Shown one piece after another: positions 18,665 to 63,203 of a DNA stretch of 64,000 nt (within the stretch, counting starts at the first letter, position 1; each line of letters opens with the position of its first letter). The notes beneath the pieces were generated by a model. The model searched no databases. It was not told where the DNA came from and saw only the letters and a program-made list of their open reading frames with translations. This stretch comes from Trichodelitschia bisporula. Lineage: Eukaryota. The translations under genes were made by a program, and so were the position numbers. The stretch spans positions 302,963 through 366,962 of the forward strand of contig ML996701.1 in the NCBI GenBank assembly GCA_010356995.1, read 5' to 3'.

Positions 18665-20044
18665 TTACACGCACAAAGCAACCATCAGATTCCGGTAGTC
18701 GCCGCTGGTCTCACCCTTGATCCTCGCCGGCAGGTCCTTGCTGTAGAACTTCTTGTATGCAAGCCCAACTTGGTGCATGTGGGCCCGATTCCAGTGAGCC
18801 CTCACCATCCGGGTGACGAGAAGCTGATCCTTGGTACCCAAGCCCTTCATGCTCTCCTCAAGTTGGTCCGCATCACTCTTAATGGGGTCGACTGCGCGAG
18901 CCAGCATCAGCCGCAACGCATCCCTCATATGTCCGCTGAACTCCTTCTTTAGCACGTCGTCCAACAACTTCCGATACTTCTCCTTGTACCGCAAGTTGAT
19001 GGCGCGCAGCATGCCGTTCGACGAGAATGCGAAGACCTGGCTGACTACGTCCTGGTTTGCGCCAAACTTTGTGCCCTCGGTGGCTTGCTGCAAGCGGTCC
19101 ACATCCCGCTCGACCTCATGCGGCAGCACCGGTGCAGATTCCTCCGCACGCCGCACCTCGAGCACGTACTCGAACAGACGTTCTGTCTTCAGCGACAAGT
19201 CCTCCTTCACCTCGCGCGCCATGTCTTTCCCGAATACTTGAGTGTAGCAGTTCTTAATGGCGCGCATGTCGGCATTCGTCCGGCCCAGAAGGACGTCGTT
19301 GAGGATAGCCTCTTTTGTCCCCAGGCCCCGGATCGAAAAGTCTACAAGATACGCGTCCTGAAGCAGAGGTCCACGTGCCAGCGCTAGCAATCCATCGCGG
19401 AAGTATCCGCTCGTCTCCTTCTCAAGATCTTTGATAAGCGAGCGTCGGAAGCGGTCATCATAGGTGTGACGCAGCTTGAGCATGTGTGGCGCATCGGGTA
19501 CGGCGGCGAGCACCTGAATCAGCTTCGCCTCGTTGGTGCCGAAACCCTTCATTGCGTCGCGCAGATCTGCGGCCTGGGCGTTCATATCGGTCATGGGGAG
19601 AGCTTGAGGATCGTAACCCGGGGAGGGAGGGAGCGGTGGCCCGCCGTACGGCGCACCCATTGGGGGACCGCCCATCGGAGGCGCACCGTATTGTCCCTGG
19701 GGAGGGCCTTGAGGTGGATATCCTCCTGGAGCGGCATTGTAGGGCGGCTGTCCGGGGTATGGCTGCTGTTGCGGGGGATAGCCTCCTTGCGGAGGATAGC
19801 CGCCTTGCGGAGGATACTGCTGAGGTGGGGCGCCGTGCGGTGCCTGTTGGGGAGGATATGGGGATGTTGACTGCGATGGGTAGCCGCCTTGCGGAGGATA
19901 GCCTCCTTGTGGAGGATAACCGCCTTGCTGAGGATATTGCTGATAGCCTTGACCGTAAGGTGGCTCTGTCAAATCGTTAGTATGTGCTGAGGACCTCGCG
20001 GTTCGCTTCCACTTACGGCCCTGATGCGGCGGATAGTAGGACAT
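18665..20044 (-). CDS. Annexin (A7/ANXC-like) with GYPPQ-repeat N-terminus
   Basis: Annexin repeats [30 protein letters not shown]; long G/Y/P/Q-rich head; 51-nt intron 20016-19966. Confidence 0.96.
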
Positions 20045-23810: not shown

Positions 23811-25343
23811 GGCGTGCGGTGAGGTGTCCGGTTGTCCGGAAGCGGAAGTCTTGTGGAAGGCTCAGCGACGGTGTGGATGGACGTCGGAAAGCAGAAACGA
23901 AGGGGCACTTTCAGCTAAGAAGGTTCTTCTTGGCCGTAGAAACAAGCTCGTGGAATCTGGGGAATAGTGAGGGGGCGCACAGCCGGGCTTCAAATGCTTG
24001 TGGCGAGATTGGACCTCTGGCGATCGGAGAAATAGGTATTAAGCTCCATGGAAATTTGACTATACGTCACTCGTGGTCTTCATTAGAATGTGGGCGTATG
24101 ATCTTGAGGAACCCGTCGCCCGGGGATTGTATATTAAACTACCCCGAGTCACAAGTTCATATATGCCCTCTACATGAGACATCAAGCCTCGCGTATCTGG
24201 AGACGGCACGACCTTCCTGATAAGGTGATGCTTGGTGGGGAGTGGCTTCGATCTGTTGATAACGGCTGATAGTACTCGTACGATTTTCCATTGAAGTCAT
24301 GATCTGGACTCTGGAACTCTGAAATGGACCTGGAAACTGTTGGCGGAGAGCCTTACGGCCGCGATTCTGGAATCTCAACCACGCGCAGCCCTGGTCGCTG
24401 ATACCACGCTTCCGGCTAGTTGGGCACTCAGGATAGAACACGAGAGAATCCCGAGCGATGGATGCGGCTGACACTTTCGGTCGATAGTAGAGCCAGGTAG
24501 TCGCGTGAGAACGAGGATAACAAAGCCGAATTGTTCATGGGTGAGTGCTGGCTTCGTAGACACGCCTGCTATCGGAGAATACAACCAAAGCTTCAATAAT
24601 AAGGTTCAATGACGTACCTATGCACAAGTTGGCCTTTTAGCGAGTGCCAAACCGGAGAAGAAGCAACTGAAAAGTCGAGCTCGTATTATCAAGACGATCT
24701 CCACTTCGAAGAAAGCCAAGATTGAAGCTTCCATGCAGCCTGATTGCTCACTGGTCGCCACGCGGAGGGGTTTTGAGAGCCAAGGGTGCTAGCGAACGCC
24801 TCCGGGGTAGTGCCGCCGTAAGGCATATTTTGTGACATCATCTACTGGGAGGAGAACGCTCCGCACCTTTGTGTGGAGAAAGGTCAAGCGAACCTTTGGT
24901 GATGATCCAACCAAATACAGTGATGGCGCCGGTGAGCTTGCTGCGCATGTGCCTCAGACCGGATGACGAGAAGGCTACCAATGCCATCTCTCGGCACTCG
25001 TCCGCAACTCTCATTCGATGGCCGTCGCGCGAGGCGCCACTTGAGATGATCAATGGTATGATTCAGCTTGCTAGATAATGGCCTTGCTTTGCAATGCTTG
25101 CGCTGGAGAGTCGCTCACCTGGTTCGCGGACAATCGAACGCTGCCTCATTCTGCTCAGAAAATCCGCTGGAAGGCTACGACTTAACGTTCAGGCTGAGAC
25201 ATTCGAGGATAAAAAAGTCGGCGAATAAGAGTCAGACTATTCCTTTCCAAAAGAGCCATCAACTTTTTGAAAAGGATTGAACGGTAGGCAATTGACGATA
25301 CTCAACTATCTTATGAAAGCATGGATCCTAACCATACTTCCAG

Positions 25344-25919
25344 ATGTCAGCATATCCAGAGTCTACGATGGCACAAAACCAACCCTATCCGTCGTATCAG
25401 CCCCGGGACGGACGCGCTCAATCTCAGCCTCAGTCCTCCCCAATTCCCATTCAGAATCAGTACCGATCCTTCCACCATCAACCCTATCCCATGACCCAGG
25501 GCTCACAAGGACCATATACTGGTTCCCCGTCACAGGAATACTCCCCGAAACATGTTCACTTCCAACAGCATGGACAGTCGCCTCAGCAGGTACACTTCCC
25601 TCAGCAAACATACCCGCCTCAACAATCATATCCGCCTCAGCAAGCGTACTCGCCTCAGCACGCATATTCAGCACAGCAGGGCCATATTGCGCCATATGAG
25701 ACGTACCCAGGTTATCAGCCTCAGCAGCGGCCACCATCTCCTCAATACTCTGAGACATCCTCGGATGATTCAAGGTCCACGCGCAGGTCAACTCGCTCTA
25801 CCCGTTCCCACCGCAGCGGGCGGCGGGAGCTCGATCGGGCGGAGCGACGGCCAACCATGGGAGATACGATTGCACTGATTTGCAAGTCAGTTTGGGGGGC
25901 CTTTGACAAGCGCCGGTAG
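25344..25919 (+). CDS. Hypothetical Q/P/Y/S-rich low-complexity protein
   Basis: 191-aa ATG ORF with 21-bp QxYPPQQ-type repeats, an RS-rich patch and a C-terminal RPTMGDT..amphipathic helix. Confidence 0.65.
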   Translation: MSAYPESTMAQNQPYPSYQPRDGRAQSQPQSSPIPIQNQYRSFHHQPYPMTQGSQGPYTGSPSQEYSPKHVHFQQHGQSPQQVHFPQQTYPPQQSYPPQQAYSPQHAYSAQQGHIAPYETYPGYQPQQRPPSPQYSETSSDDSRSTRRSTRSTRSHRSGRRELDRAERRPTMGDTIALICKSVWGAFDKRR

Positions 25920-26259
25920 TGGGTTCGGCGAAAGCTTTGGCCACCAAGTGCCGGAGCTGGTATACATCGATATAACAGCCGTCGAGATCGCTTTTTGGTG
26001 CGAACACTGGTGCTGCTGAAGGCGTATTAAACTCGATTGTTCTTAAGGCGTGAAAGTATTGGGTCGATTGTCAATGATGGCCTCTGATATGGCACTGGAA
26101 ACGATGGTGAGCAGGGTGGCGTTTGAAAGTGGCAACGGTCGAGCTCATGGGTGTTGACATTTCTTTCTTTCGACATTACGGTTGAAACTAGTAAGCAAAT
26201 TAGCATCTTTGGTGGACTACAGCCTACCAATCCTCTGTATTATCTCGTATCCGAGAACC

Positions 26260-26610
26260 ACGATGGCAACGTTGTTGGGGGAGGCGCTATCCAGCATGAA
26301 GTATCCAATCTTGACTTGCTGGGGTCGGCGACGTATATCTACCAGCATAGAGCCATCGATTGCCACCTTAACCACTAGGTTAATGACGTGGCACGCGCAG
26401 CGAAGTCGTTGTTCAGCGTCGTCAAAGCTGAATCGTGAGCCGACGTCCGTGATTCGGCTTTGAAGACGCTGAGCGAGGGCTTCGCTGCGCATGCCACATC
26501 ATCAACCTAGTGGCTAAGGCGACAATGATTGGTGTAAGTCGGAAGACATTGACGCTGCGACCCAAACATATTTCTGGATGTGCATGAACTAAGATACTTC
26601 AGGTGCATGA
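26260..26610. mobile_element. hAT-family transposase relic arranged as an inverted repeat
   Basis: Minus strand RLRCACHVINLVVK and KIGYFMLDSASPNN; plus strand GLRCACHIINLVAKA. These match hAT CxxH and catalytic D(N)ASNN motifs. Core arms 26353-26437 / 26448-26532. Confidence 0.8.
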
Positions 26611-26813
26611 AGTTTTCTGTTCGGGAGCTTCGGGTGGCGGTGCTACTACATGTGGCTTATGGCCTTGGCATTTGGTTTGGAGAATATCTTGGCGTCACGT
26701 CGATCGAAGGATTTCGAGTGCCATCAAAAATTCCGCCTCTATTTAATCGCGTCGTTACGTCTACACTGGAAAAAAATGTGCGCTCTTGCACCTCTGAGTT
26801 AACCTTGCGATTG

Positions 26814-29657
26814 ATGCAAGCGGCCTTAGGCAGATCATATGCCAGGTCTTTGGCGTACCGGACGGCGCTCGCGTTGCGACTCCCATGCACCAGTCTCTTC
26901 ATCGAATACCGATATTTCTCAAGCACTCACCGCCGCGATGCCGAAGGAGAAAACCCTCAACAGCCTCTCCATCCCCTTCGGAAGGAGGGACCCGGAAAGG
27001 CTTCGCAACAGCAATCGAATGAATCGACGACTTTAGAGACCGATCTCTGGTTCCAATCCAGCGTTGCCTCCCGTACGCCACATTTGCTGCGGCAGGTTGA
27101 CGATCCGGATCGAGCTCGGGATTTGGAGCTGTGGCTGCGGCTTCTACAATTCCGGGAAAGGATTGATGGCTGGAGGGGTATTGCTCTGATATGGCGTGGG
27201 ATGAGGAACCGCTTGGTGGAGCTTTCCACGGACCCAACGTCCGAGGCGATCTGGCGAACTCTCTTGCGGAACCATGACCTTCATCAGAGTGTGTTTGACT
27301 ATGCCGTCGACTTGCGCAATGGGACGGGCAAGACGTTTGAGCCTATGTACGCAATTATCCTTGGAAGCCGGATACAGTCCGCCCCAGAGTCTGTGATATG
27401 GTGGCACAAGAAGTTCCGCCAAAACTATCATATTCGTGACAAAGAATTTCGAAATTTGGCAGTGGCGGCAGCGAGATCCAAAACTGGGCTTGCCCAGTTC
27501 AAGAAAATATACGCTGACTGCCTCCCAAGTCAGCATCATGTCTACGATCCCCTGGTTTCCGCTCTCTGCCACCAGGGAAGGTACTACGAGGCAGAAAGGT
27601 GGCATATGTTTCTCATCTCCCACGGCGACACTCCGTCGCCTGCCATGTCAGCATCACCTGCTATGGAAGGGCTCCGAAATTATCGATGGTCCATGGCTTC
27701 GACGCCTAAGCTGGCCGGGGACCACTTCGACCGAAAGCATTCCACAACCTCCGAGTCAAATCCCCCCCCGGCCCCTAAGCCTCCTAATAAGACCGCGATT
27801 GACAGCACTGCGATTCCGGCTGGCTTCACGAGGGAGACGATGGGCTCATTCTTGGGACTCATTCCTGCAATTCCTCCGAAGAAATTCAGCGATGAATTTT
27901 GCGCTCGGCTCTTCGCGACTAAAGCCTTCTCCCTTTCTTCTGTCATTGGCATCCTCAGCATGTTTTCGGTTGAGGTCATTGGACCACTGGCGTTACGGGA
28001 GTTGACCTTGCGTGCTGCAACATGCAGCGAAATCAGCCAAAAGATCGGGGAATTACGTATAGCTGGCATACGTCTCGAGGATCGTATGTTCTGTAGAGCT
28101 GTAGAAAAGCTGGCCATCGATGATAATCAGACCCTTCTGGATGATCTGCTTGAGACTGATCAGCATCCTGAGGCTCTCGAGGATACAGATCTCCAAAAGA
28201 AGCTTCTTGCCGTCTACATCCAGCAAGAAGATTGGCCGCGGATTCGCTTCATGCTTGGACTTCTCACCTTGTTTAACAAAGATCCGACGACTGAATCCTG
28301 GAACCTCTTTCTTCAGCATTATGCCGGGAGTAAAGACCTTGCGAAGCTCAGCAAAATTCTGAATGACATGCGCCAAGCTGGGATTCATGTCACGAATGAG
28401 AGCATGGACGTAATCCAGGCACGCCGCCTCGAGCCTCGAAAGCCTGGGACGCCGCCTAAGCCGACCGAGCCTGGCGAAGTAGACGACGTGGATGTTGTTG
28501 CAAACATATTGTTTCAGACCATCGCCTCCGGCGATACTGTATCTGCCCTGCGATGGCGCGAGATCATCCGTCGCTACGGGATGAAAGGCAGGTTCGATGA
28601 CCTCTCAGGGCTTTTGTTCCGCCTCGCTCAGGTGTACAATGCTGAGACTCGCGTCAAGTCGCCGTTACCGTTGGGCCATCTGATCGACTTTGCAGGCGAC
28701 AAAGATCAACTTAGGACCATACCTCGGTTACATCCTTCTCATCCCCTTCGGGAGATATGCGACGCCAACCTCCAGCGAGCAGTCGTCACGTGGGGCTTCA
28801 CGCATGGCGCTCTAGTGATTTCCGAGCAGCTTAAACTGGAAAAGGATCTGGAGACTGGAGCCTCGGAACAGCAGCTGGGCGTACTGGAAGCCCCGGCGGT
28901 GGTGGCAACGGATTCTGATATCGGTGATCTTGGGCCGGAGCATCTCGATCTATCGCCTTCGAATACCATCCTCCGCGGCCTCATCTTGCTTCAAGACCTG
29001 GCAAGCAAGGGTGTGGTTGTCCAGACCGAAGTAGTTAAAAAAGTGGTTAAAGAGCGCCTGTGGCAGTTGTTCAGCCCCGGAACATCATCTCGCAGGCTCA
29101 ACCGCAAGGCAAAGGATGAGAACCTTTTCACCATGGAGGAGATTGTTCAAGCAATCGAAAGCATCTGGACGGGGCGGCCTCTGTTTCCTGAGCTTGCCGA
29201 GCTGCCTTTCACAACCCCGGTTCTGCAGCCACCAGCAGGACGTAAGGACGGCGAGGAGCAACCCGAACCGCTTCTCCGATTTCACGGCTCGAAGTCGAAG
29301 CTGTGGAGGAGCACGGGGTTGCATGTGCAGCCTCCCCTCCCGCTGGTTGGGGAGGCTCCGCTTACCCATAAACCGCTCGCTGACAGGATCAATTCCTCTC
29401 CGCGTAAGCCAAAGAAACCTGGAACCCGTATCGAGTATCCTCGCTACAGCTCCCTCGTTGACGACATTTTGTTTTCTAAGACGGATGATGGGCAAGGGAC
29501 GCGGCCTTCGTCGACCACGAAAGTTGCGGAGAAGCGCAAGGCGTTTTTGCTTGCGTTGTTTGGGCCGACGCCGAAGATTAAGGGCCAGCGTGTGAATGAG
29601 AAGGAGTGGGAGGCGTATCTTGAGGCGAGAGTGTGGGAGGACCCGTTGAACTTGTGA
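26814..29657 (+). CDS. Mitochondrial pentatricopeptide-repeat (PPR)-like protein
   Basis: Long intronless ORF; Arg/Ser/Leu-rich presequence ending YRYFSSTHRR; PPR-like units YDPLVSALCHQGRYYEAERW and SWNLFLQHYAGSKDLAKLSKILNDMRQAGI; first plausible ATG 26814. Confidence 0.8.
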   Translation: MQAALGRSYARSLAYRTALALRLPCTSLFIEYRYFSSTHRRDAEGENPQQPLHPLRKEGPGKASQQQSNESTTLETDLWFQSSVASRTPHLLRQVDDPDRARDLELWLRLLQFRERIDGWRGIALIWRGMRNRLVELSTDPTSEAIWRTLLRNHDLHQSVFDYAVDLRNGTGKTFEPMYAIILGSRIQSAPESVIWWHKKFRQNYHIRDKEFRNLAVAAARSKTGLAQFKKIYADCLPSQHHVYDPLVSALCHQGRYYEAERWHMFLISHGDTPSPAMSASPAMEGLRNYRWSMASTPKLAGDHFDRKHSTTSESNPPPAPKPPNKTAIDSTAIPAGFTRETMGSFLGLIPAIPPKKFSDEFCARLFATKAFSLSSVIGILSMFSVEVIGPLALRELTLRAATCSEISQKIGELRIAGIRLEDRMFCRAVEKLAIDDNQTLLDDLLETDQHPEALEDTDLQKKLLAVYIQQEDWPRIRFMLGLLTLFNKDPTTESWNLFLQHYAGSKDLAKLSKILNDMRQAGIHVTNESMDVIQARRLEPRKPGTPPKPTEPGEVDDVDVVANILFQTIASGDTVSALRWREIIRRYGMKGRFDDLSGLLFRLAQVYNAETRVKSPLPLGHLIDFAGDKDQLRTIPRLHPSHPLREICDANLQRAVVTWGFTHGALVISEQLKLEKDLETGASEQQLGVLEAPAVVATDSDIGDLGPEHLDLSPSNTILRGLILLQDLASKGVVVQTEVVKKVVKERLWQLFSPGTSSRRLNRKAKDENLFTMEEIVQAIESIWTGRPLFPELAELPFTTPVLQPPAGRKDGEEQPEPLLRFHGSKSKLWRSTGLHVQPPLPLVGEAPLTHKPLADRINSSPRKPKKPGTRIEYPRYSSLVDDILFSKTDDGQGTRPSSTTKVAEKRKAFLLALFGPTPKIKGQRVNEKEWEAYLEARVWEDPLNL

Positions 29658-29854
29658 TACCCTCGGACATTGAATATAAGCAGACTGAATGGTAAACAAC
29701 ATAATGGAATAGCCTGTACAGATAACGCTGGTTCTGATACCATTCGCTCATTTTACACAATGAATTCAACTCAATCCACCAGCAAACAGTGACTCCATTA
29801 CTCCGCGCTGCCATGCTGTGATATTTACACCCACCACATTCCGAGTCCGCCAGG

Positions 29855-32046
29855 CTAAGCTCCATCAGCACTCTCCTCTCCATCAAGTCCCTGCTCAAAC
29901 TCCACCAGCGGCGTCCCAGCCTTGCAAATATCCCCTTCCCCATGCACAACCCTAGCAATAACCCCATCAACCGGGCTCCTTATCACCGTCTCCATCTTCA
30001 TACTCTCAATAACCACTAGCGGCTGATCCTTCCTCACCGTATCCCCGGCCTTGACATCCACGCGCAGCACTTTGCACGGCATAGGCGCCAGCACGCTATT
30101 CGCCACGTCCCGCACGCCCAGCGCCTTCGCTGCCCATGCCGGCGGGGCGAGTTGTAGCTTCCACTGCTTCCCGCGCTGGAAGAGCGTGAGCCAGTCTTCG
30201 TCGCGGATTAATGTGGTGGCGAGGCGCGTGTGCGGGAAGTAGGAAGTGAAGGACCCGCCGGTACCGGTCGTGGTGACGTCGGGGTAGTCGACATCGCCGA
30301 TGCGGATGCTGAAGCGGTGCGCGCCCGGCTCCGCGCTAGGGAGTTGCCGAATGGACACGGCGGTGGGCGTGCCCACGCCCTTGCCGTCGGGCGGCAACTC
30401 GATGAGACTAAACTCGCGTTCCTGAAATGTATCATCTAACAACCACCCCCCTTGATCCCCCCTTATCTCCCCCATGAACACCCCGACCGCCGCCTGCGCA
30501 TACACCTCGTCCGGGACCAAGACACGTCTGAAAAGCTCCCCGCGATGCTTATCAATATACCCCGTCTCTACATCACCAGACACAAAATCCGGGCTCACAA
30601 CGACCCTTTTCAAGAACTCGATATTCGTAACGGGGCCCGCGATTTCGTACCCCTCGAGCGCGGCGCGGAGTTTTTGCAATGCGGCCACCCGGGTCGGGGC
30701 ACGGACGATGAGCTTCGCGATCATAGGGTCGTAGTGCGAGGATATTTCGTCGCCGGCGGTGAAGCCGGCATCGACGCGGACTGTGTCCGAGACGGGCGGC
30801 ATGTGGAGGTGCAGGAGGCGGCCGGAGTCGGGCATGAAATTCATGTCCGGGTTCTCGGCGTAGATGCGCGCTTCGATTGCGTGGCCGCGTTCCGCTATAC
30901 GTTGCTCGATTTCGGCCTGCGAGAGGGGCAGCACGCCGCCTTCTGCGACGATGAGTTGCCAGCGGACTAGGTCTTCGCCCGTTACCATCTCAGTGACCGG
31001 GTGCTCAACCTGCAGGCGGGTGTTCATCTCCATGAAGAAGAACTCGTTCGTGTCGTTGTCGAAAATGAACTCGACGGTACCGGCACCCTCATACCCTACC
31101 GCAAGGGCGGCTGCGCGTGCCTTCTCCCAGATATCCTTCCTGATATCATCGGCCAGATGTGGCGCGGGGGATTCCTCGAGGATCTTCTGATGCCGACGCT
31201 GGATGCTGCAATCACGCTCGCCCAGCGCGACGCAATTTCCGTGCTTGTCGGCGAAGATCTGCACCTCGATATGCCGCGGCGTGGTGATGTACTTCTCAAC
31301 CAGCATAACATCATCCCCGAAGCTGTTTCGCGCCTCGGACTTCGCACTCGCAAGCTGATCCATAAACTCCATCGGCGTAGCAACGATGCGCATGCCCTTC
31401 CCGCCTCCGCCCTTAACCGCCTTCAGCAGCACCGGGTACCCAATCTTCGCCGCCTCGGCTTTCAAGTACTCGGGGTCCTGGTTCTCCCCGTGGTACCCCG
31501 GGATGCACGGCACGCCCGCCGCGGTCATAATGTCCTTGGAGCGGCTCTTGCTGCCCATAGCCTCAATTGCCTGCCACGGCGGGCCGATGAAGGTAAGTCC
31601 CGCCTCCGAGCATCGTTTTGCGAACGCGGCGTTTTCGCTCAAGAAGCCGTAGCCGGGGTGGATGGCCTGACAGCCTTCGCGCTGGGCGACGGCGATGAGG
31701 CGCTCGCCATCTAGGTACGCGCTTGGGTCGCCGAGGTTCACAGAGAAGGGCGAAGAGAGCGCGTGTTGGCTGCGGGCGTCGGGGTTGGTATAGATGGTTG
31801 TTGTGCGGATGCCGTAGGTCGCGGCGGTGCGGTTGACGCGCCTGGGACGTTAGGGAGGAGGGACTGGAGGATGGTAGGATCTTACAGGGCGATTTCGCCG
31901 CGGTTCGCAATTAGGAGGGATGTCAATGGTTTGGTGTCTATTGAGCTGGACTCGGCTCGGGATGAGGTCTGGCGGCGTTGGACTGTGAGGGGGGACAAGA
32001 CGCGGGGGAGGTGGTAGGGACGGCGGAGACGTGAGAGGGACGACAT
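29855..32046 (-). CDS. mccA: 3-methylcrotonyl-CoA carboxylase alpha (biotin-containing) subunit, mitochondrial
   Basis: LLIANRGEIA, IHPGYGFLSEN, GGGGKGMR, RDCSIQRRHQK, EMNTRLQVEHPVTE, biotin site ESMKME; presequence; one intron. Confidence 0.92.
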
Positions 32047-32829
32047 TGTGATTACTGTTTATAGGGATAGGAGAACAGTGTTCGAAGACTTCCTCTCATA
32101 TGTATCGTGAAGTGAAGTGAGAGAGTTTGAAGGCTTCATTCCAAGGTACATTCAGCATGTCGTCCACCATGTGCACCAACCGATAATAGCCGTCAGTAGC
32201 CCCTCAGGCAGCAAGTCCGCAGTGCAGCTCGAATTGCGGGGAAGGGTAAGGGCCGCTCAAAACAAGTCATTGTTGCCTTATCCGCTAAATTTCCCAGGCC
32301 GGACGGCCATGATTTCTTTCCACTGCCCTTACGCTCTCTTGGCGATGAAGTCGGTGGCTCAAGCATCGTACGGTAGCGCATTAAAAGTCGTTGCATGGAA
32401 ACCATCCATAATTATTAGCGGCGGCACGCAACCTCTTTTGTTATGCTTACGGGTAAGCTCAAGTCCCGTGTCGCCGCCTTCCCCCGCCACGCCGATCACC
32501 TCCTTGGCTCCACTTTGGGTCAACTACGCGCCGAGATTGCCTTCATTCTACATCCTCCTCCTTACTACAGCCGTTGTCACCAGACCGTCACTGTTATCGT
32601 CAGTTTCTCCGTTGCAATTTAGCAGCAACTTCATTGAAAATCCACCTGCAGACACCCAGCGGATCATTCGATCGTTTGGACGCGTTGCCTTCCTCGCCCC
32701 TCCCCCTCAGCTCTCAGCCCCGGACTACCGGTAGATCGTCGACTTGAGCAAACAGCTACCCCGCCCGATCATCATCGCCTTGCATTGCCGCTTCCCTATC
32801 CAGCTTCGGCGTAGCCTGGTGCTAACACC

Positions 32830-34036
32830 ATGTCGGACTCGGAAGACGGTTGGTACGGCGATGACGCCGACTACTTCTACGTAGAAGACACCTACCAGAT
32901 CGCCGTACGTGCATCTCGTACTTCCAGCTTCTCATACCTAACAGGCATAGGACGACCTCGCCGAACACGCCATGCCATCCCCCCCACCGTTCGAAGGTGA
33001 CGATGAATGGGACGATGACTGGCGCTTTGAATACTTCAATGACATCGAATACGACGACGACGACTTCTACACCAAACCCCAGGCAGGCGCGGGCACAAAG
33101 CGCAAGCGCGCCGGCGGGGACCAAACACTGGTGCGGCTGCGGAAGCGGCGCGTCAGGGCCGTGCAGCCTGTCGTCTGGCGTGGTCGAGACACAAGGCCTG
33201 CAGATCCGAAGGTGTATATCCCCGGGTCTGCGAAGCCGTATACACTGTTCAAGGACTGGAGGGAGCGGTTTAAGGACGTGCCACTGCCGGCGGTGCCGGA
33301 AAGGCCGGTGCTTGCCAAGGTCGAGGACGCGCCTGAGGACGACGTGCCTGAAGACGACGGGCATGATGAAGCCGCAGAAGACGCCATGGACGAGTGGGAA
33401 TCAGACGACGAAGATATCGAAGATGAAGACGACGAAACCTCGGCAAATCCACCCGGCCTGAACCCCGAGATCCTCAAGACCGCTCTCCGCGCCAACCTCG
33501 CCAAAATTGGTCTGGACACGAGTAACGTCGACGAGGCCACACTGCTGCAGTTCGCGACCCGGATGTTCGAGGACATGGGCCGAGGGGAGGAAATCCTCAG
33601 CGAACTTGCTGACCTCGTTTTGTCCAGGGACAAGGACTCCGAGCATGAGGACGGGTTCTCGAAATGGGTCACTGGCCAGGTCAAGCCTTCCAAAGTCGAG
33701 ACAGAACCGGTCATGGAAGGCGGCCCGGTTGCGCCCTCGGATACTCAGCCTGCGCCTCCATTGTCGCCCGCTGCGCTGGAGACGGAGCAGATGTCGGCTG
33801 ATCAGGTTATGCTTGATGCCCAGGCTCAGGCTCAGGCTCAGGACGGCACGAAGGCTACTCCGTCCGAGGCCGAGGTTTCTCATGGCCGGAAGCGGAGAGC
33901 GAGTCCGGAACCGGCGTTGGAGGTGGAGAGTAAAAAGCTCGAGCCTGTCCGCTCGTTCGGTGCACCCACGGCTTCGAGTATCGCGAAGGCGACGCAGAAG
34001 GTTGTTCCTGGAGGGAAGAGGCAGAAGGTCGCCTAA
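32830..34036 (+). CDS. Hypothetical acidic fungal protein (2 exons)
   Basis: MSDSEDGWYGDDADYFYVEDTYQIA spliced (GTACGT..CTAAC..TAG) to DDLAEHAMPSP; D/E-rich, with NLS-like KRKR. Confidence 0.75.
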
Positions 34037-34088
34037 CGGTGTGCTATTTCGTTTGCGTAGGATGGAACATTGCACGGCGTTGACTAGC

Positions 34089-34478
34089 GAGCGTGAGGCG
34101 CGCAGCAAAGGGAAGAGAAGGTCCAAACGACTCGAGATTGCAGGAGAGTTCCTGCGGAGACGGGATATGCTTCTCCATGGCAGACCTGGCGTCCTGTCCG
34201 CGCTGAACGCTGCCAGACACGTTGGCGTATTCGAATTCCGTCATCACGATGATCTCGTGCAGGGGCTCAATGAAATCTAGCACGAAGCTCTGACCTCGAG
34301 GTCGTATTAGTTTTCTTTGAGCCTCTTCACGTCGCCATCGTGGGACAGAATCCGATTACGCAACGTCTGCGGTAGTGTTCAGGGCTGGGAGGATGCCAGC
34401 ATCCCGTCCCTGCAGGAGCACGCCCGCGATCGAGAGTCGCTTGGCCCTTTTTCGTCCCTTCCTGCGCGCCTCACGCTC
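34089..34478. repeat. Diverged ~190-bp-arm inverted repeat (fold-back), probably transposase-derived
   Basis: Arms begin with an identical 17-mer GAGCGTGAGGCGCGCAG; 60/78 identity over the outer block; central perfect palindrome GACCTCGAGGTC at 34292-34303. Confidence 0.9.
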
Positions 34479-34841
34479 TAACTTCGCTTTGTATGGCGCA
34501 CAGGAGTTGTTGAGGTGGGCTGGTGCTTTATGTCATGAATGGTGGACTGGCGTTTGTGTATCTACATCATAGCTGGATTAGCTCACTTGTCGGTGTATGG
34601 AATCTCCCAATGAGAACAAAATGTTCCGAATTGACAACTGCTCAAATACATGTACTGAATCATATCCCTTATACAAACGCCATCCAATGCGCAGTGAACA
34701 ATCCCTTCATCACGCAAGCCCAACGCAGCAATAACCATCCCCAGGCGACCCGGCGAACAGCCCGAAGCCTACACAAACGCCCGCCGCCCGCCGCCCAACG
34801 TCCCAATCCCATTACCATCTCCACCTATCCCAGACCCCGAC

Positions 34842-37800
34842 TCAGATAAACCCCTTCGTAGCACTCACCCTCCTCAACTGCCTATGCACTATAACCGCCT
34901 GTTCAGCCCCCGAGCCCGGCAAACTCCCTCCCTCAGAAGAACGTTCCGGCACCGACTGTGACACAACCGAGCCTGCGCGCCCACCACGCACACTGCCCAC
35001 CTCACTGCCCGGAACCTGCAGTCCACCAGACACGGGACCACGCGCACTCCCGCGCTCCACGCGGAGGGCCTTCCACCCCTCCAACTCGCGTTCCAGCCTC
35101 AGCGCCCTTTCGCGCTCTTCGCGCAGCTCGCGTTCAGCTCGCTTGGCCGCGAGCTGGTTCGTGGAGTCTGAGGTCTGGAGCTCGTCGATCGTGCCCAAAA
35201 GGGTCGAGATCTTATCCCTCGCCTTACTGAGATCATCGGACAACGTGTTGTTCGCCTTCTCGCGCCGCTCAATCTGCTGCTGCAAATCGCGCACCGTGCG
35301 GTCAACAGAGCGCACGCTCCTCGCCTCCTCCGAGCGGCGCTCCTGCGCGGCTTCCAGGTCGCGTTCCAGCTGGGTAAGGTTAGAAACGGGGGGCCAAAAG
35401 CGGCGGGGGGTACGGGAACTTGCCTCTTGGATGCGGCCGTTGAGGAACTTGACGTCATGGGAGGCGGACGTGTATGTCTGTGTCTCAAGATCCACCAAGC
35501 GGAGCTGCAGCTCGCGGACGCTCTTCTCGAGCGCCGCCTTGTCCTTATGCAACTGCACGTTGAGTTCGCGCTCAACTTGTATTTCCTTCTGCGTTTCCTG
35601 CGCTAGCGCGTCGGAGCGGCGCATCTTACCAATCGCAGCGGCGACAATGTCTTCCTGCTGCGCGACGCTGGCCTTGAGCTGCAGGAAGTTGCGGTCGATG
35701 ATGGCGGCGTTGCGCAGGGTGGGGTTTTCCACGTTGACCAGATCTTCGAGGCGGGAGGTTGTTTCGTTGAGCCGCGCTTCGATGCTCTTCTTCTCGCGCA
35801 TGAGCGCATCGCGCTCCTCGCTCACCTCGTCGATGTTGGAGCGCAGGCTGCGCACCTGCTGCAGCAGATTCACGATCTTAGTCTGCGCGTCGTTATGCGC
35901 GCTCACGGCCTCGTCGCGGCTCTGGCTCAGCTCCTGCACAATCATGTCCAGGCGCCCCTTCTCCTTGGCCCAGGTGGACGAGTTGAGTACCTCGTCGTCC
36001 CACTTCCCGCGCAGCTCCTCGATCTCGTCGCGCAGGCGGCCGTTCTCCTCACGGACATGAATAACATTATCGCGCTCGACCTCGAGCTCGTTGGACAAAG
36101 CCGAGAGCTCGGCTTGGTACTTCTTGCGCGTCTGCTCGAAGGAGAGTTCCTTGTCCTCGATCTCGACGGCGCGTTGCGAGCGGTAGTCCTCGAGCTCGTT
36201 CTGCAGGCGCTTCTTCGCCTGGACCGCACCATCGAGATCGGCTGAGAGATCCTCGACACGCTCCTCGAATTGCTGCAGTTGCCTTTGGAGATCCTCAACC
36301 GTGGCGTCCATGGCCTTGCGCTCGGACATGATGCTCGCGCACGTCTCCTCAGCCTCGCGCGCCTGAGTCTTGGCAAACTGTTCCGCGCGCGTCGCCTTAA
36401 GAACCGCAATCTCAGCTTGCTCGAGCTTGCTGAAATACTCGTCAGCACGCGATTTGTACAAATTGAGACTAGAGACTGTATCCAAGTACTTGGAAGTCTC
36501 GCTGTCGAGGCGGATCTGGAGGTCCGAAAACTCCTGCAACAGCTGCGCGTGGTTGGCGTCCAGCTGCTCGTGCTCGTACTGCTTCTCCTCCAGCGCCATC
36601 TTGTAGTCGCGGGTTTCCATCTCGGCGGAAATCTTGCCTTGCTTGACGTCGTCAAAGGCGGTCTTTGCGTCGGCCAGCTCGTTGACGGCGTTGTTGTGGG
36701 CTTGCAGCAGGGCCTTGCGGCCTTGCTCTTGCGAGCTGAGCAGGTCGTAGAGCTCTTCGTGGGACCTCGCTTGCACTTCCTGAAGCGTGAGCTCGCCAGT
36801 GTGCAGACTATGTTCCAGCGCGGACACTTTCTTCGCAGAGTCGTCGAGCATGTCATGCAGGCGGTAATTTTCGCGCTCGAGCTTCTGCACACGGCGCAGC
36901 GAGGGACTATCATCCATCCAAGCCGCCTTGTTAGGCGAACGCTCGATCTGGCTCTGCAGATGGCGATTCCGCATCTCCGACATCTGGAGCTGATTCTGGA
37001 CCAATTCCAGTTCAGCCGCCAAATCCATACGGTTGTTGTACGTAACCGTGTCGACAGTGCGGTCCGACCTCGCCGAGGACTCGTTCGTGGCATTGCTGAT
37101 GTGGCGCTGGGTATTCGGCGTTGTGTAAGGCGAGAACGGGCGCTTGTTCTCGCCCGTATTCCGGCGCACCTGCGTCGGCGACGAGCGCGTGTTCACCTGG
37201 CTGTTGTTCATCTCCTCGAGCAGCGCGCGCTTAGAATCCGAATGGCGCGCATCCATCTCAGCCAGCTCGTCGCCATGGCGATGACGCAGCTCCGCAAGCT
37301 GCGACTCCATCTGTGTGCACTTCTCGCTCGCGATGCGGAGGGCCGCGCGAGTCGACTCCAACTTCTGAGCTAAGTCGACCGTGCGCGCGATGTCAGGCTT
37401 AGCTGACTCAAACGTGATGGCGATATCAGAGACCGAGGGGTCGAAGACCTTACGCAGGAGAATGAGCTGGTTGCGGCACTCGACGAGCTCCTTGTTAGCC
37501 TCGTCCAGGGACGCTTGCACCACGCGCGTGTTTTGCTGTGCCTGGGCGCGGAGTTGCTTTTCGGTCTCGAGCTTGCGATTCACCTCGGCGAGTTGCAGGT
37601 TCGTGGTCGAGGACATCTGTTCCGCATTGCGGGTGGTCTTGTGTTCGCGGTTGACTTCGTGCGTCAGGTCCTCAAGGCTGAGCGAGAGGCGCTCTTTCTG
37701 CTTCTCGAGCGAGGAAATGGTCAGTTGTGAATCTTCCAGATCCCGCGCGAGGCGACGAGCTTCCTCTTCAGCCTTGTGCTTCTCCGACGTAAGCTGAGCA

Positions 37801-40800
37801 ATCTTCGCGCGCTGGGTATCGCCGGCACGCGAGTTAGACCGCGCAATATCGAGGTTCTTCTGCTGGATCTTGTTAAGCAGCGCGCGGTTGTCGTTCTCAG
37901 ACGCAGCCAAGCGGCCCTTAATGGTAACCAGCTCGCGCTCAAGGCGCTCCTTGTGTTGGTCCTCGTGGTGCCGGAAGTTGTCCGAGTCGGCCATCATCTG
38001 CGTCAAGCCCTGGACCTCATCGGCGAGCTTATTGCGCTCCTCAATGACTTCGTCAAGCTCCCGCTCGCGAGTATCGAGCTCCTTCCGCAGAGCAGCCTGG
38101 CGCTCGTTCGCAGCGCGGAGTGCCTTCTTCTCAACCGCAGCCTCGGCGTGGAGCTTTTCCTCTTGCAGCTCAAGGTACTTTTCGCGGAGCGTCCTAAGCT
38201 CGAGTTGGAAGTCCTTGCGCTCTTTCTCGGCCACAGCACGAGCCTCAGTAGTGCGGCGGAGCACGTCCTGCTGAACGTACATCTCCTTCTCGATGGTGAT
38301 CTTGGCGTCATTCAGAGAGTCGAACTCCTGCTTCAGTGAAGAGTACTTGTGTTCGCTGAGCATTTCAACATCATCACGAGACTGACGTTCGCGACTCAGG
38401 TCCTTCTGCACCGAAACGAGCTCGCCACGCAGGTCGTCGACTTGCCGCTCGAGGACCTTGCGGGTTTGGTCATCCGAGATGCGTTCCTCGAGCATCCGAC
38501 GAGCATCAGCGGCCTCCTGTTCGAGTTGGGAGTTGTGGAGCTTCATTCCTTCCATCTCAGCCTGGGCATCCCGAAGGCGTTCCTGGACGGACTCATGCTT
38601 GAAGGTAAGACGTTCCTTCTCATCTTCGAACATCTTGCGGTCGAACTCAGCCTTACGCAGGTCGGACTTGAGGACGGCCATTTCGCTGTCCTTGCGACGG
38701 ATGACGTCTTCGAAGCTCGAGGAGGTGGTGGAGAGGTCGTCGATTTGGCGTCTGATATCGCGGTTCTCGTCAATAAGCTCCTTGATCTGCTTACGCGTGG
38801 CTGCAACCTCCTTTGCCGACGCAGCAAGCTCGATGTCCACATCCTGCTCGTTCTTCAGCAACTTAGCCTCGAGATCTTTGAGCTTCCGTTCCTTGAGCGC
38901 GAGATGGCTGTTGAGCATCTTTACTTCCTGCTCGAGCTTCTCCTCCTCTTCGCTGCGCTGAGAGCGCGAATGCTCGAGCTCAGTCATTTGGGCGTCCAGC
39001 TCCGAGATGCGATCCAACAAGTCTTGCTTCTCGCCTTCCAGCGAGCTGATGATCTCCCCCGCTTGCTCGAGCTGCTTCCGCCAAGCGTCAGCCTCCTCCT
39101 CGGTCTTTTTCTTCGCCATCATCAGCTCATCAAGTTGATCTTCCAGGTTCTCTTGGTCGTCAAGAGCTCCAGCAAGCTTGTCAGTCAGCTCAGCCTCGCG
39201 ATCCTGAAGCCGCTTAAAGATCTCATCCTTGTCGAGCGCCAGTGCGCGCTCGCTCTCAAGGGTATGTTGAATACGCTGGATTTCATGCTCAGCGCGCCGA
39301 CGCTCCTCCTCCAGCCTCTGCTTGTCCGAAAGTTCCACCTGGACCTTCTCTTCCAGCTTGTGAATCATCTCATCACGCTTCTTCATCTCTGCAGCCTGGC
39401 GGGTAGCGCCGAGGAGAGGCTTCATCCGGACGAATAGCCGCCACCACGGGTTGGTCTGCATCTGCGAGTAGATCTGGAAGTTGTGTTGGATGATACGGGT
39501 CGCCTCTGCTCGATACAGACGCTTGTTAGCGATCCGGCGCTGAACGAATCCGCGAGCTACTGATTGGAAGCGCGCCATGATTTCGCTGATGAGCTTGTCG
39601 CGGCGCTCCTCGAGATCGGCAAGGACGCCCGCACGAAAGAAAACCTTGGTGAGACCGACGCGGTAGAAGGCTCGGTCCATATTGAGCTTTTCGAGCATAA
39701 GCTTTGCGGCGACTTGGCCCTCGAGGTATGCCTTTGGCATGTCACGGCAAAGAACCTCATAGCGTTGTCGGAACTCCGCAAAGGGCAATCTGTTGGGGAA
39801 CCCAGTGCGGGCAATCCGAATGCCTTCCAAGACACCGTTGCAGCGAAGCTGGTCTAGAACGAGGGGCGCGCTGAATTGCTTTGCCTTCTTTTTGTGATTC
39901 GGCAGAATGCAGCGCACGAAATGGGGATGGGTTGAGTGAAGCTGGTTCATCAGCGTAGAGAGCTGCTCCTTGTGGCGCTGAGCGACGGTGCGGAAGAGGC
40001 CCTTTTTCACACGGCTTCGCATTCCACCGGTCTCTTCATCGGGGTCCAGGCAATCTGAGAACAGGTGCGCGATATGCTTCTCCCGAGAAGAGGCCAACAG
40101 TTTTGTCACGTTGTCCGGGAGCGGATCCTTGTTCTTCTCCAGCCAGCCTTCGGTAGAGTATTCCACCTCCGCCGCATAGTGCGTCAAAACGAAGCCATGC
40201 GTCATAAGTGAGCGACGGTACTTGGGCGTCTTACGATCCCAAAGAGCATGCAGCTTCTCCGTGAACGTGACGTCCGTTGCTTTGGGCATAACGCAGTCCT
40301 CGTCCAGGCACGAGAAGACACCGATGGGGTTCGAGAGTTCGATCAAGTCAATGGTTGGTTGGAGGTCCTTTCCGAAGTCGATAAACTTCCACTCAATCTG
40401 CTCTCGGGCGTATTCTTCCTGCTCCAGAACAAACATGTGGTGATTGAAGAATTGCTGCAGCTTCTCGTTGGTGTAATTGATACAGAGCTGCTCGAAGCTG
40501 TTCTCGTCGAAGATTTCAAACCCGGCAATATCCAACACGCCAATGAAGTGCGAGTCATCAGAACCGGCACCTGAGCGATCAAGCTGGCGGTTGATGCGGT
40601 CCACAAGGTCACCGAAGCCGCGCTCGTAGATACCCTTTGCAAGAGCGCTGATCGCCAGCCGCACCTGTTCCGGAGTTTGGACCTTCTCCACGAGCTCCCG
40701 CCCGGCACGCACGCGGGGGTGGAGGATGGATTTAATGAACTGCTCAGAGGATATACCAAGCAGGTGGCAAACCTTGTCGACGTGTGTACGCGACTCGGGC

Positions 40801-42279
40801 GCCAGAGCGGCCTGGTCAGCATGTCGGCTCTCTTTCATGACCGCAATGTTGCCGAGATGGAGGATCGCCGCAAGAGTCCGAAAGATGGAGTTCTGCTCAT
40901 CCTCGGAAAAGCCCATGATGTGGAAGGCTTCGAGAAGAAGATTCCACTCCTCGAGATCGGAAACGCCCGTGATGGTGTCATTGCCTTGCCGCGTGTACTC
41001 GAAGTCCTCGATGTCCATGTCATTCAGCAGGAAGTTCTTCTTCATGCGAGGGTCGCTTCCCCGCAGTAACTGGTAGAAAATATGGTAGTTGCGCTCAGTG
41101 GAGTTGAGCTTCACAACGCGCGACTTCTCAAGCAGATACCAGTCGATGTAGGCGCCGGCAATTTGACCCGACCGGGTGAATTCAATACGGATGAACTTGC
41201 CGAAACGCGAAGAGTTGTTGTTCCGCACAGTCTGCGCATTACCGAACGCCTCGAGAATTGGATTGGCTCTGAGAATCTGCTCCGACAGATTGGAAGCCTG
41301 CCGCATGCCCGTTTTGGCAGCTCGGGGAGTGTCCGAAGTAGCGACAGCGGCGAGATATTGGATCACCTTCTTGGTATTCTCCGTCTTTCCTGCGCCGGAC
41401 TCTCCCGTGACGAGGATGCTCTGATTGCGCCCCTCTTCTACTAGGTTGCGGAAGGCCTCGTCGGCCATAGCGAAAATGTGCGGCTTCGTGTCTTCACGGC
41501 TTCTTCCACGGTACAGGTTGATGTAGTCGCGGCTGTAAATAGGGAGAGGACAGTAAGGATTGACGGTAACCAAAAACAGCCCGGAATATGTCTACAGTTG
41601 TCAATACGCTGCATATGTAGTCTACGGAGTTCCTTACGTATATCAAGTCGGCTTGGTACCGCATGTGCAGGTTGTGTACCACCGACGCCTCGTTCAGATG
41701 CGTCAGCTCGGCCATGTCATCTGCTTTGTCGAACTTGGCCGGATTGACCTTGTCAACGTCGTCAGGATGCACTGTCCGTTGCTGCGATATGTTAGCACTG
41801 GGGGGGTCGCGATACATGATGCCTTTGCTCACACTGTCGTCGTCACACTGAACGAGAAGCTGCCCGTCAGAGAGCTCCTCAACCACCCACCCGCGCACGA
41901 ATGCCGTCGCCGGATCCTTCAGCCAGACATATCTCCTTCCGGAGAAATCGTTCTCGCCTTCTATACCGCGTACCGGCTCCATGCCAGACTGCATATCGTC
42001 AGATGTGATGAATGTCGGAGCAAAGGTCCCGGAGGCTGGAGGATTGCCGCGGTGAGAGTTTGATCGTGTGCGGATCGAATTGTTGCGGGAGGGCGCAGTT
42101 GCTCCGCTCAGCGTCGACAAGGAGCGGACATGGCCCTGACCTTGTGAAGCGAAAGGCGACGGAGCTATCATGGACTTTGGTCGATTACCGGTAGAGGGTG
42201 ATATAGGAGCCGGCGAAGCGGAGTTCCTTGCGAACGGACTGTTTCGCCATTTGGGACCATCCTGTGCGGGGGCACTCAT
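34842..42279 (-). CDS. Myosin type II heavy chain
   Basis: SH3-like N-domain, GESGAGKT P-loop, NNNSSRFGKF, LDIAGFE, QLRCNGVLEGIRI, IQ region and ~1400-aa coiled-coil tail; introns near 41.8, 41.6 and 35.4 kb. Confidence 0.97.
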
Positions 42280-62642: not shown

Positions 62643-62772
62643 CGGATGTAACTTGTGATCATACCTAAGCTCCGCCGCGCAAGTCACCTTCAAACTCATT
62701 CATCTACATCCTGTACGGATGTAAGTTGTGGTTATGTACCTAAGCTCCGCCTTGCAAGTCACCTTCAAACTC
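62643..62772. repeat. Imperfect direct repeat, 2 x ~56 bp (period 73-75 bp)
   Basis: cggatgtaa.ttgtg..tacctaagctccgcc..gcaagtcaccttcaaactc at 62643-62697 and 62716-62772. Confidence 0.9.
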
Positions 62773-63071: not shown

Positions 63072-63203
63072 CAGTTCTTCTCCCATCATTGGACATATTC
63101 AGCATCTATTGAACCTCAGTCCTTCTCCCATTCGACATATTCAGCAATCATTGAACCTCAATCCTCCTCACATCGGACATATTCAGCATTTATTGAACCT
63201 CAG
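63072..63203. repeat. 42-bp tandem repeat x3 immediately upstream of the SDR start
   Basis: GACATATTCAGCA at 63092, 63134 and 63176, each followed by ATTGAACCTCA. Confidence 0.92.

What the first reader, a model, noticed from the sequence alone, without database searches (positions are those of the whole stretch)
26260..34478. Recurrent architecture: head-to-head fold-backs of transposase coding fragments (candidate Mu-killer-like hairpin-RNA loci)
Seen: two intergenic loci 8 kb apart, unrelated in sequence, share one geometry. Two diverged copies (~70-80% identity) of a coding fragment are joined at a tiny loop or palindrome, each reading outward from the axis. There are no TIRs or full element nearby, and both lie within a few hundred bp of host gene ends. 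Established: inverted duplications of TE sequence transcribed from a neighbouring promoter can yield hairpin siRNA that silences the TE family (maize Mu killer), and fungi have Dicer/Argonaute pathways. Inference: this genome may generate or retain such fold-backs as a small-RNA memory of hAT elements. Alternatively they are scars of aberrant hAT transposition or hairpin-end repair. The mismatch load means any duplex is now imperfect.
Basis: partly seen in the sequence, partly recalled or inferred. Interest (0 to 1): 0.72.

Follow-up and report, generated by a model that had tools for sequence, protein, structure and literature searches.

The report
Fold-back transposon scraps beside fungal genes
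This fungus carries many short, decayed back-to-front duplications, often made of transposon gene pieces, and the two in this window lie in transcribed DNA just past host genes; they look like old DNA-repair scars that could fold into RNA hairpins, but nothing yet shows that they silence anything.

Summary
Both fold-backs are real (arms about 80% identical, RNA-fold z about -12 and -13) and single-copy. Locus 1 is hAT transposase, reads outward, and is circularly permuted with the axis at the cut point. Locus 2's transposase origin failed every statistical test. Contigs of one RNA sample cover both hairpins.

The geometry recurs genome-wide. 8 of 23 weak transposon relics are fold-backs (hAT 4/4, Copia 3/6, Gypsy-type RT 1/3, others 0/10), against about 0.2% of sampled DNA. 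A sample of 795 kb gives about 290 fold-backs per genome, mostly of unknown source. The class is not hAT-specific, and orientation is 8 outward to 2 inward (p=0.11).

Against a working Mu killer: no resident element matches the arms, there is no G:U strand bias, and no 3'-end enrichment was seen. No small-RNA data were available. Dicer, Argonaute and RdRP genes are present.

Best reading: snap-back repair or capture scars of transposon-derived single-stranded DNA (0.55). Selected hairpin-RNA memory stays open (0.25). The scan earlier noted Copia fold-backs elsewhere in this genome and similar cases in three other genomes.

The parts
25128..25919 (+). Host gene A: small Gln/Pro-rich ORF (ATG 25344, stop 25919) with a 5' intron 25284-25343; probable source of the transcript that runs into locus 1
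   Evidence: ORF; GT..AG joint and contig 25128-26535 at depth 1272; no Pfam family above cut-off
26245..26316 (-). hAT transposase piece A (KIGYFMLD..NN..VLGYE), unpaired or nearly so; lies downstream of piece B although it precedes B in intact hAT genes
   Evidence: blastp-type match to L008, E 1e-4; 72-nt DNA alignment that ends where piece B begins in L008
26322..26434 (-). Locus 1 left arm: hAT piece B (FSFDDAEQRLRCACHVINLVVK), reading outward
26435..26450 (.). Locus 1 loop and axis; coincides with the A|B junction of the intact gene
26451..26563 (+). Locus 1 right arm: second copy of piece B (FGFEDAERGLRCACHIINLVAK), reading outward; a possible remnant of piece A follows near 26590-26610
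   Evidence: remnant p=0.04 only
26814..29657 (+). Host gene, PPR-like (weak), probably mitochondrial; its 5' end lies about 250 bp from the right arm
   Evidence: ORF; PPR_2 E 0.001, below cut-off; start codon and mitochondrial location inferred from the sequence
29855..31849 (-). Host biotin carboxylase gene (methylcrotonyl-CoA carboxylase alpha-like; that name is recalled), between the two loci and not part of the feature
   Evidence: Pfam; intron joint at 31840/31885
32830..34036 (+). Host gene C: acidic protein of no known family, intron 32905-32950; locus 2 lies in its probable 3' UTR
   Evidence: ORF; joint and contig 32451-34634; Pfam blank
34089..34279 (.). Locus 2 left arm; source unproven (hAT-like by eye only)
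   Evidence: origin tests negative
34280..34307 (.). Locus 2 loop
34308..34478 (.). Locus 2 right arm
34842..41591 (-). Myosin II-like host gene (name from reading the translation) converging on gene C; its stop lies 364 bp from locus 2
   Evidence: 2249-aa frame; coding score

Best explanation
The two loci belong to a genome-wide class of old fold-back (snap-back) inverted duplications, many built from transposon coding fragments of several classes.

Shown: the structures, the hAT identity and permuted order at locus 1, the recurrence in hAT, Copia and Gypsy relics, and coverage by RNA contigs.

Inferred: a single-stranded piece of transposon DNA (a resected end, a flap, or cDNA of transposon mRNA) folded back on a short inverted microhomology, primed synthesis on itself, and was captured at a chromosomal break, sometimes with other pieces of the same element. 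A first-strand (antisense) cDNA would put the axis at the 5' end and make both arms read outward, as most isolated scraps do.

The arms then drifted to 70-80% identity. Where such an insert sits in a host 3' region it is transcribed as a long imperfect hairpin, but the donor families are gone from the genome, so today it is most likely a passenger with no trans target.
For: Enrichment: 8 of 23 weak transposon-relic loci are fold-backs against about 0.2% of a 794,584-base sample; p about 1e-8 even with a 2% background. Three unrelated transposon classes take part, so the process is not tied to one transposase. Arms of 57-191 bp and loops of 0-111 nt resemble yeast fold-back insertions, which form at breaks or inside extrachromosomal ssDNA and include captured transposon cDNA and multi-fragment inserts (PMC11724301, passages). 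Patchwork features: exact permutation at locus 1, an extra inverted hAT piece abutting L015, two fold-backs about 200 bp apart at L020. Neutral-looking decay: G:U 99, A.C 102, transversions 122, no strand asymmetry, no CpA (RIP-like) excess in 18 fold-backs. No present target. No 3'-end enrichment: 3 of 15 vs 21% (crude gene model that missed gene A).
Against: Palindromes are usually deletion-prone (general knowledge), yet these persisted to 20-30% divergence with few gaps (0-7) in a compact 25.8 Mb genome. All 5 identified hAT fold-backs read outward. Arm-to-arm differences favour third codon positions (63 of 144, p=0.006), which simple drift does not predict; but this drops to 50 of 121 (p=0.15) without the anchor motifs, and detection bias alone gave 36-41% in simulation. 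Yeast fold-backs are mostly far shorter (most under 14 bp, up to about 150). The cDNA step is not shown: the orientation bias is not significant (8:2, p=0.11). The source of the 9 randomly sampled fold-backs was not identified.
Confidence: 0.55

Rival explanations
1. Selected hairpin-RNA memory. The fold-backs arose as in the best explanation but were kept because read-through from host genes made dsRNA whose siRNAs silenced hAT, Copia and Gypsy families, which have since died out. Fold-backs of host genes would be purged as self-silencing.
For: About 100-fold enrichment among transposon relics, while only 1 of 27 strong hits examined has a fold-back at the hit. RNA contigs cover both window hairpins. 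The genome has 2 Dicer, 3 Piwi and 3 RdRP loci. Weak third-position excess. Earlier AI notes describe host-gene scraps in this genome as co-oriented, not folded back (not tested here). Precedents in maize and tomato.
Against: No cognate element at DNA level. Longest uninterrupted duplex 13 bp and 17 bp at the two loci. No G:U strand bias. No 3'-end enrichment. Later relic searches gave 0 of 10. No small-RNA data.
Confidence: 0.25
2. Scars of hAT chemistry: hairpin-capped ends left by hAT excision or alternative transposition, resolved by replication into palindromes.
For: hAT relics are the most affected class (4 of 4 plus locus 1). The axis of locus 1 sits at the cut point of a permuted fragment. 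Alternative transposition makes Ac inverted repeats in maize. That hAT transposases hairpin the flanking DNA is recalled, not tested.
Against: Copia and Gypsy RT or integrase fragments show the same form. No target duplication at either locus. Maize products keep element ends and span kilobases.
Confidence: 0.08
3. The arms are two different paralogous transposon copies (or their cDNAs) joined head-to-head, so most of the divergence predates the joining.
For: Third-position share 44% in the arms against 51% between intact Gypsy paralogs; narrow identity band of 70-88% in most cases.
Against: The excess is within reach of detection bias. The frame-free period-3 test is not significant (p=0.07 for transposon-found, 0.26 for random fold-backs). 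Both arms start at the same position. L146 is a 90-94% identical young case.
Confidence: 0.07
4. Co-opted cis elements: the hairpins act on their host mRNAs (3'-end formation, stability, or insulation between converging genes).
For: Both window loci lie in transcribed 3' regions; in X1 the high-depth contig of gene A stops at 26535, just past the core of the right arm.
Against: Contigs cannot show transcript ends; the X2 contig runs on through three genes; no 3'-end enrichment.
Confidence: 0.05

Closest known systems
Maize Mu killer (PMC3440606, passages) and the Ac killers p1-ww-id1 and id4 (bioRxiv 10.1101/2020.01.07.897926, passages)
   Same: Inverted duplication of part of a transposase gene, lying where a host promoter can transcribe it; Ac is a hAT element.
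   Different: The killers keep the terminal repeats outside, so the gene copies read inward; arms are 1.3-3.9 kb and near-perfect; an active cognate element is present and silencing is shown (siRNAs shown for the Ac killers). Here arms are about 110-190 bp, about 80% identical, internal, without element ends, mostly outward, with no cognate element and no small-RNA evidence, and they number in the tens to hundreds.
Yeast fold-back inversions and templated insertions at double-strand breaks (PMC11724301, passages)
   Same: Short inverted duplication with a small loop, formed by a 3' end folding on microhomology; can arise inside extrachromosomal ssDNA; transposon cDNA and multi-piece inserts are captured at breaks.
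   Different: Seen as rare experimental events, mostly under 14 bp and raised in RPA or Rad27 mutants. Here they are fixed, old, 60-190 bp per arm and concentrated in transposon relics.
Rearranged endogenous pararetrovirus inverted repeats of tomato (PMC9868043, abstract and outline)
   Same: Intergenic or intronic inverted-repeat rearrangements of invader sequence proposed as a heritable RNA-based record.
   Different: There siRNA production and reporter interference are reported; plant viruses, not fungal transposons; nothing functional is shown here.
L1-associated fold-backs and inverted duplications (bioRxiv 10.1101/2024.12.14.628481, passages) and Aspergillus flavus inverted triplications (bioRxiv 10.1101/2025.01.14.632981, abstract)
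   Same: Hairpin self-annealing at reverse-transcribed or broken ends gives inverted duplications; such events occur in a filamentous fungus.
   Different: Large, transient or somatic rearrangements, in A. flavus in AT-rich heterochromatin; here short fixed inserts in GC-rich, gene-dense DNA. The passages seen do not describe self-priming of free cDNA.
Fungal milRNA and hairpin small-RNA loci (PMC9757828, passages); Drosophila hpRNAs (PMC10292708, PMC10317233, search listing only)
   Same: Long hairpins near or in genes as small-RNA sources; some fungal loci overlap transposons or UTRs.
   Different: Defined by small-RNA reads, which are lacking here; the passages seen do not describe fold-backs of transposase coding fragments.
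MITEs and Foldback elements (recalled)
   Same: Short palindromic non-coding inserts near genes; one sampled fold-back (L095) does belong to a small palindromic repeat family.
   Different: The window loci are single-copy, lack target duplications, and at locus 1 the arms are internal coding sequence, not element ends.

Membership tests
Transposon 'killer' locus (Mu killer, Ac killer) | Inverted duplication of transposon sequence | tested here: met
   Locus 1: hAT on both arms. For locus 2 only the inverted duplication is met.
Transposon 'killer' locus (Mu killer, Ac killer) | A transcript that spans both arms | tested here: inconclusive
   Spliced contigs cover both hairpins, but from one sample, unstranded, and contigs also fuse neighbouring genes.
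Transposon 'killer' locus (Mu killer, Ac killer) | siRNAs of 20-25 nt from the arms | not testable with these tools
   No small-RNA run listed.
Transposon 'killer' locus (Mu killer, Ac killer) | A resident cognate element with near-identical sequence | tested here: not met
   No DNA match genome-wide; best 21-mer 18/21 and 17/21 against the held hAT loci, at shuffle level. The genome may be incomplete and has masked stretches.
Transposon 'killer' locus (Mu killer, Ac killer) | Heritable silencing in trans | not testable with these tools
   Needs genetics.
hAT transposase-derived sequence | Catalytic-core motifs (DNAxxN, CxxH) at locus 1 | tested here: met
   both motifs present, in permuted order.
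hAT transposase-derived sequence | Significant similarity to hAT at locus 2 | tested here: inconclusive
   All statistical tests negative; only a by-eye motif; the profile covers a limited set of subfamilies.
hAT element or MITE | Terminal inverted repeats with an 8-bp target duplication, and multiple copies | tested here: not met
   No flanking 8-mer repeat; single copy.
Fold-back templated insertion at a DNA break | Short inverted duplication with small spacer, often within multi-fragment inserts | tested here: met
   Loops 0-111 nt, arms 57-191 bp; patchworks at locus 1, L015, L020.
Fold-back templated insertion at a DNA break | Junction microhomology and an empty ancestral site | not testable with these tools
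   Arms too diverged; no relative genome held; no syntenic locus in metagenomes.
RIP-mutated repeat | C-to-T changes concentrated at CpA | tested here: not met
   Transition contexts CG 44, CC 38, CA 37, CT 29.

The most novel reading that the evidence does not exclude
This fungus keeps a dispersed, heritable archive of past transposon invaders. Fragments of hAT, Copia and Gypsy mRNAs are reverse-transcribed, snap back on themselves and are inserted as 5'-to-5' hairpins at up to a few hundred sites, some in host 3' UTRs, where they feed Dicer. Transposon-derived hairpins are retained and host-derived ones purged, giving an acquired RNAi memory spread over the genome instead of one cluster.
Probability: 0.2. 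Interest if true: 0.88.

Novelty: new variant of a known kind. Interest (0 to 1): 0.58.

Why it matters
How transposon silencing is first triggered, and whether natural 'killer' hairpins are rare accidents or a routine product of genomes, is open. A compact fungal genome in which about a third of recognisable transposon relics are fold-backs gives a countable test set: one small-RNA library and one related genome would decide between selected memory and repair scars. Even as scars, their frequency points to an unusually active fold-back or capture pathway in this lineage.

Tried and rejected
Origin of locus 2: own-genome protein search, hAT profile, blastp against 57 hAT proteins, phmmer over 1.84 billion proteins (the single hit P0058 is a repeat protein, rejected), hhalign, DUF659 (the control rang nowhere, so uninformative), Pfam on six frames, ESM Atlas (best 0.77, noise level). 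A longer-protein search timed out. For locus 1 the word-index search found nothing.

G:U strand bias and RIP signature: absent. Third-codon-position excess: looked strong on the first 7 fold-backs (48:31:21) and weakened with 9 and with controls; treated as inconclusive. Outward orientation: 8:1 (p=0.04) fell to 8:2 (p=0.11) after L146. 3'-end preference: not seen.

The later relic batch (rve, MULE, RT_RNaseH, DDE_3) gave 0 of 10 fold-backs; some of those weak hits may not be transposons. Harbinger search empty. hAT queries P0013, P0050 and P0044 found no new relic loci. No relative found in metagenomes. No run on record as RNA was listed; X1 and X2 were judged RNA from spliced joints.

My recollection of inverted-repeat siRNA loci in the Cryptococcus paper PMC6643885 was not borne out by the passages read. 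Supplements of the papers were not read.
Full report
Setting. The window is G000:C15:302963-366962 of a 25.8 Mb, 44-contig genome, gene-dense and about 55% GC, with short introns; I read the genes as those of an ascomycete fungus. An earlier AI note names the species as Trichodelitschia bisporula; I did not check this.

Observation. Self-comparison of the window finds two strong inverted repeats and no others. Locus 1 has arms 26322-26434 and 26451-26563 (80% over 111 bases). Locus 2 has arms 34089-34279 and 34308-34478 (79% over 170 aligned bases, 7 gaps). As RNA they fold with z -11.9 and -13.4. Neither has a DNA copy elsewhere in the genome, a flanking 8-mer duplication or an Rfam match.

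Locus 1 is hAT. Both arms carry the RCxxH core motif reading away from the axis; each scores about 19-20 bits on a profile of 39 hAT proteins, where 0 of 600 random pieces scored above 4.6, and hhalign gives 86%. Beyond the left arm lies the GYFMLD..NN motif (26245-26316). In the resident hAT relic L008 that piece comes directly before the RCxxH piece, and at DNA level it ends where the arm sequence begins. Locus 1 is therefore a circular permutation of a roughly 190-bp fragment, with the fold-back axis at the cut point. A trace of the same piece may follow the right arm (p=0.04), which would mean the permutation came first.

Locus 2 is unidentified. It resembles the hAT 'FLxPF..T..E' stretch by eye, and 3 of the 4 best pairwise hits fall there, but the score equals shuffles (p=0.38). 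All other tests were negative.

Transcription. Two runs of one sample give contigs with GT..AG joints, so they are RNA. In X1 a contig runs 25128-26535, from gene A through the core of both arms of locus 1 (depth 1272; the next contig starts at 26603, depth 381). Another runs 32451-34634, through gene C and all of locus 2. In X2 one contig spans locus 1 but also fuses three genes, and locus 2 is split over two overlapping contigs. No base differences from the genome were listed. Contigs are unstranded and show no ends, so this fits the hairpins lying in 3' UTRs without proving it.

The architecture is genome-wide. I sampled 80 stretches of 10 kb (794,584 non-N bases, about 3% of the genome). 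Nine fold-backs reached 50 bits and five weaker ones were listed; block-shuffled copies gave 0. That scales to about 290 (130-550) per genome and covers about 0.2% of the sample. None of the nine could be tied to a transposon: all were run against the hAT profile and proteins and the held transposon loci, and 7 of 9 against Pfam. One overlaps a predicted coding segment and one belongs to a small palindromic repeat family.

Transposon relics are enriched in fold-backs. I then searched by homology, which is blind to inverted repeats, and examined weak or broken hits. hAT: 4 of 4 (L014, L015, L019, L020); at L015 the Pfam hit abuts the arm and one search hit the arm itself. RVT_1: 1 of 3 loci (L113, a Gypsy RT piece), after dropping two cross-hits to intact Copia and merging two hits of one locus. 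Copia RVT_2: 3 of 6 (L132-L134). Integrase 0 of 1, MULE 0 of 2, RT_RNaseH 0 of 6, DDE_3 0 of 1. The total is 8 of 23, p about 1e-8 even against a 2% background. The line between weak and strong hits (about E 1e-6 or broken frames) was mine and partly drawn after seeing results. Among 27 stronger hits examined only L146, a young Copia-type or other integrase fold-back at 90-94%, has one at the hit.

Orientation. Of 10 fold-backs with an established frame, 8 read outward (locus 1, L014, L015, L019, L020, L113, L132, L134) and 2 inward (L133, L146), p=0.11. All five hAT cases are outward. Both inward cases are the folded 3' end of a longer retroelement piece. A fold-back of an antisense strand, such as first-strand cDNA, gives the outward form, whereas a broken DNA end gives either (inference).

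Signs of function. The genome encodes 2 Dicer, 3 Piwi-domain, 3 RdRP and 3 DNA methylase loci, so hairpin processing is possible. But across 18 fold-backs the mismatches give 99 G:U and 102 A.C on the plus strand, with no per-locus asymmetry (p=0.48) and no CpA excess. The longest uninterrupted duplexes at the window loci are 13 and 17 bp. The best 21-mer match to held near-intact elements is at shuffle level for 10 of 11 fold-backs, with L019 at 19/21. Position just downstream of a coding segment was not enriched (3 of 15 vs 21%; the model missed gene A). Differences between arms lean to third codon positions (63 of 144), but this is not significant without the anchor motifs and can be approached by detection bias.

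Mechanism. The data fit fold-back synthesis on single-stranded transposon DNA with capture at breaks, as shown in yeast for resected ends and extrachromosomal ssDNA (PMC11724301, passages). This accounts for several transposon classes, short arms, small loops and patchworks. It does not by itself explain why so many relics have this form or why palindromes persisted. Either the pathway is unusually active on transposon-derived DNA here, or the hairpins were kept by selection. The two ideas share an origin and differ in retention. I give 0.55 to scars with no present role, 0.25 to selected hairpin-RNA memory, and smaller shares to hAT-specific chemistry (0.08), joined paralogs (0.07) and cis roles (0.05).

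Comparison and novelty. [quoted passage not shown] Nine literature searches listed no report of a genome-wide excess of transposon-coding fold-backs in a fungus; the library lacks most subscription papers. The scan itself noted Copia fold-backs in this genome and single cases in three other genomes; these are unchecked AI notes, not independent support.

Verdict. A real and recurrent feature, broader than hAT and weaker in function than first proposed: a new variant of a known kind, interest 0.58.

Noticed in passing
L146:158-452 (G000:C4, near 1554.7 kb): Young fold-back (90-94% identity, 15-nt loop, 77-bp uninterrupted duplex) in a retroelement integrase frame, reading inward; the best candidate for a present-day dsRNA source.
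   Followed up: partly
L020:1469-1997 (G000:C16, near 258.6 kb): Two fold-backs about 200 bp apart; the first is hAT (first catalytic Asp motif), the second looks by eye like the adjoining hAT stretch but does not score.
   Followed up: partly
L015:1316-1674 (G000:C1, near 239.5 kb): hAT fold-back (WNS motif) abutted by an inverted piece of the hAT dimerisation domain: a patchwork from one element.
   Followed up: partly
L134:362-656 (G000:C22, near 89.7 kb): Copia fold-back whose 111-nt loop holds the sequence just 5' of the arms, as expected when an antisense strand folds back internally.
   Followed up: partly
L095:3431-3608, with copies at L095:4570-4722, L095:6475-6624 and L105:316-425: Small dispersed palindromic repeat family, MITE-like.
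   Followed up: partly
L009 and L010:688-1898 (G000:C26 and C23): Two 99.6% identical copies of a 1.2-kb non-autonomous hAT derivative with 20-bp terminal inverted repeats; recent hAT activity in this genome.
   Followed up: no
G000:C24:104158-104796 (+) and C24:109068-109571 (-): Two strong Copia RT hits on opposite strands about 4 kb apart; possibly a large inverted arrangement.
   Followed up: no
G000:C10:522395-524067; C18:570652-571683: One RdRP locus and one Argonaute locus match in pieces or with stops; introns or decay, not resolved.
   Followed up: no
L018:2495-2556: Short near-perfect hairpin (27-bp arms, 96%) about 500 bp downstream of a broken hAT frame.
   Followed up: no
window 25599-25678; 19769-19943; 45514-45721; 62643-62772; 63087-63203: Short tandem or direct repeats (18-, 45- and 42-bp units among them); the first lies in gene A and encodes its Gln/Pro-rich repeat; the others were not examined.
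   Followed up: no
window 35369-35424: A 54-base skip in RNA contigs near the 3' end of the myosin gene with ends CT..GC (GC-AG intron on the minus strand), which keeps the frame.
   Followed up: no
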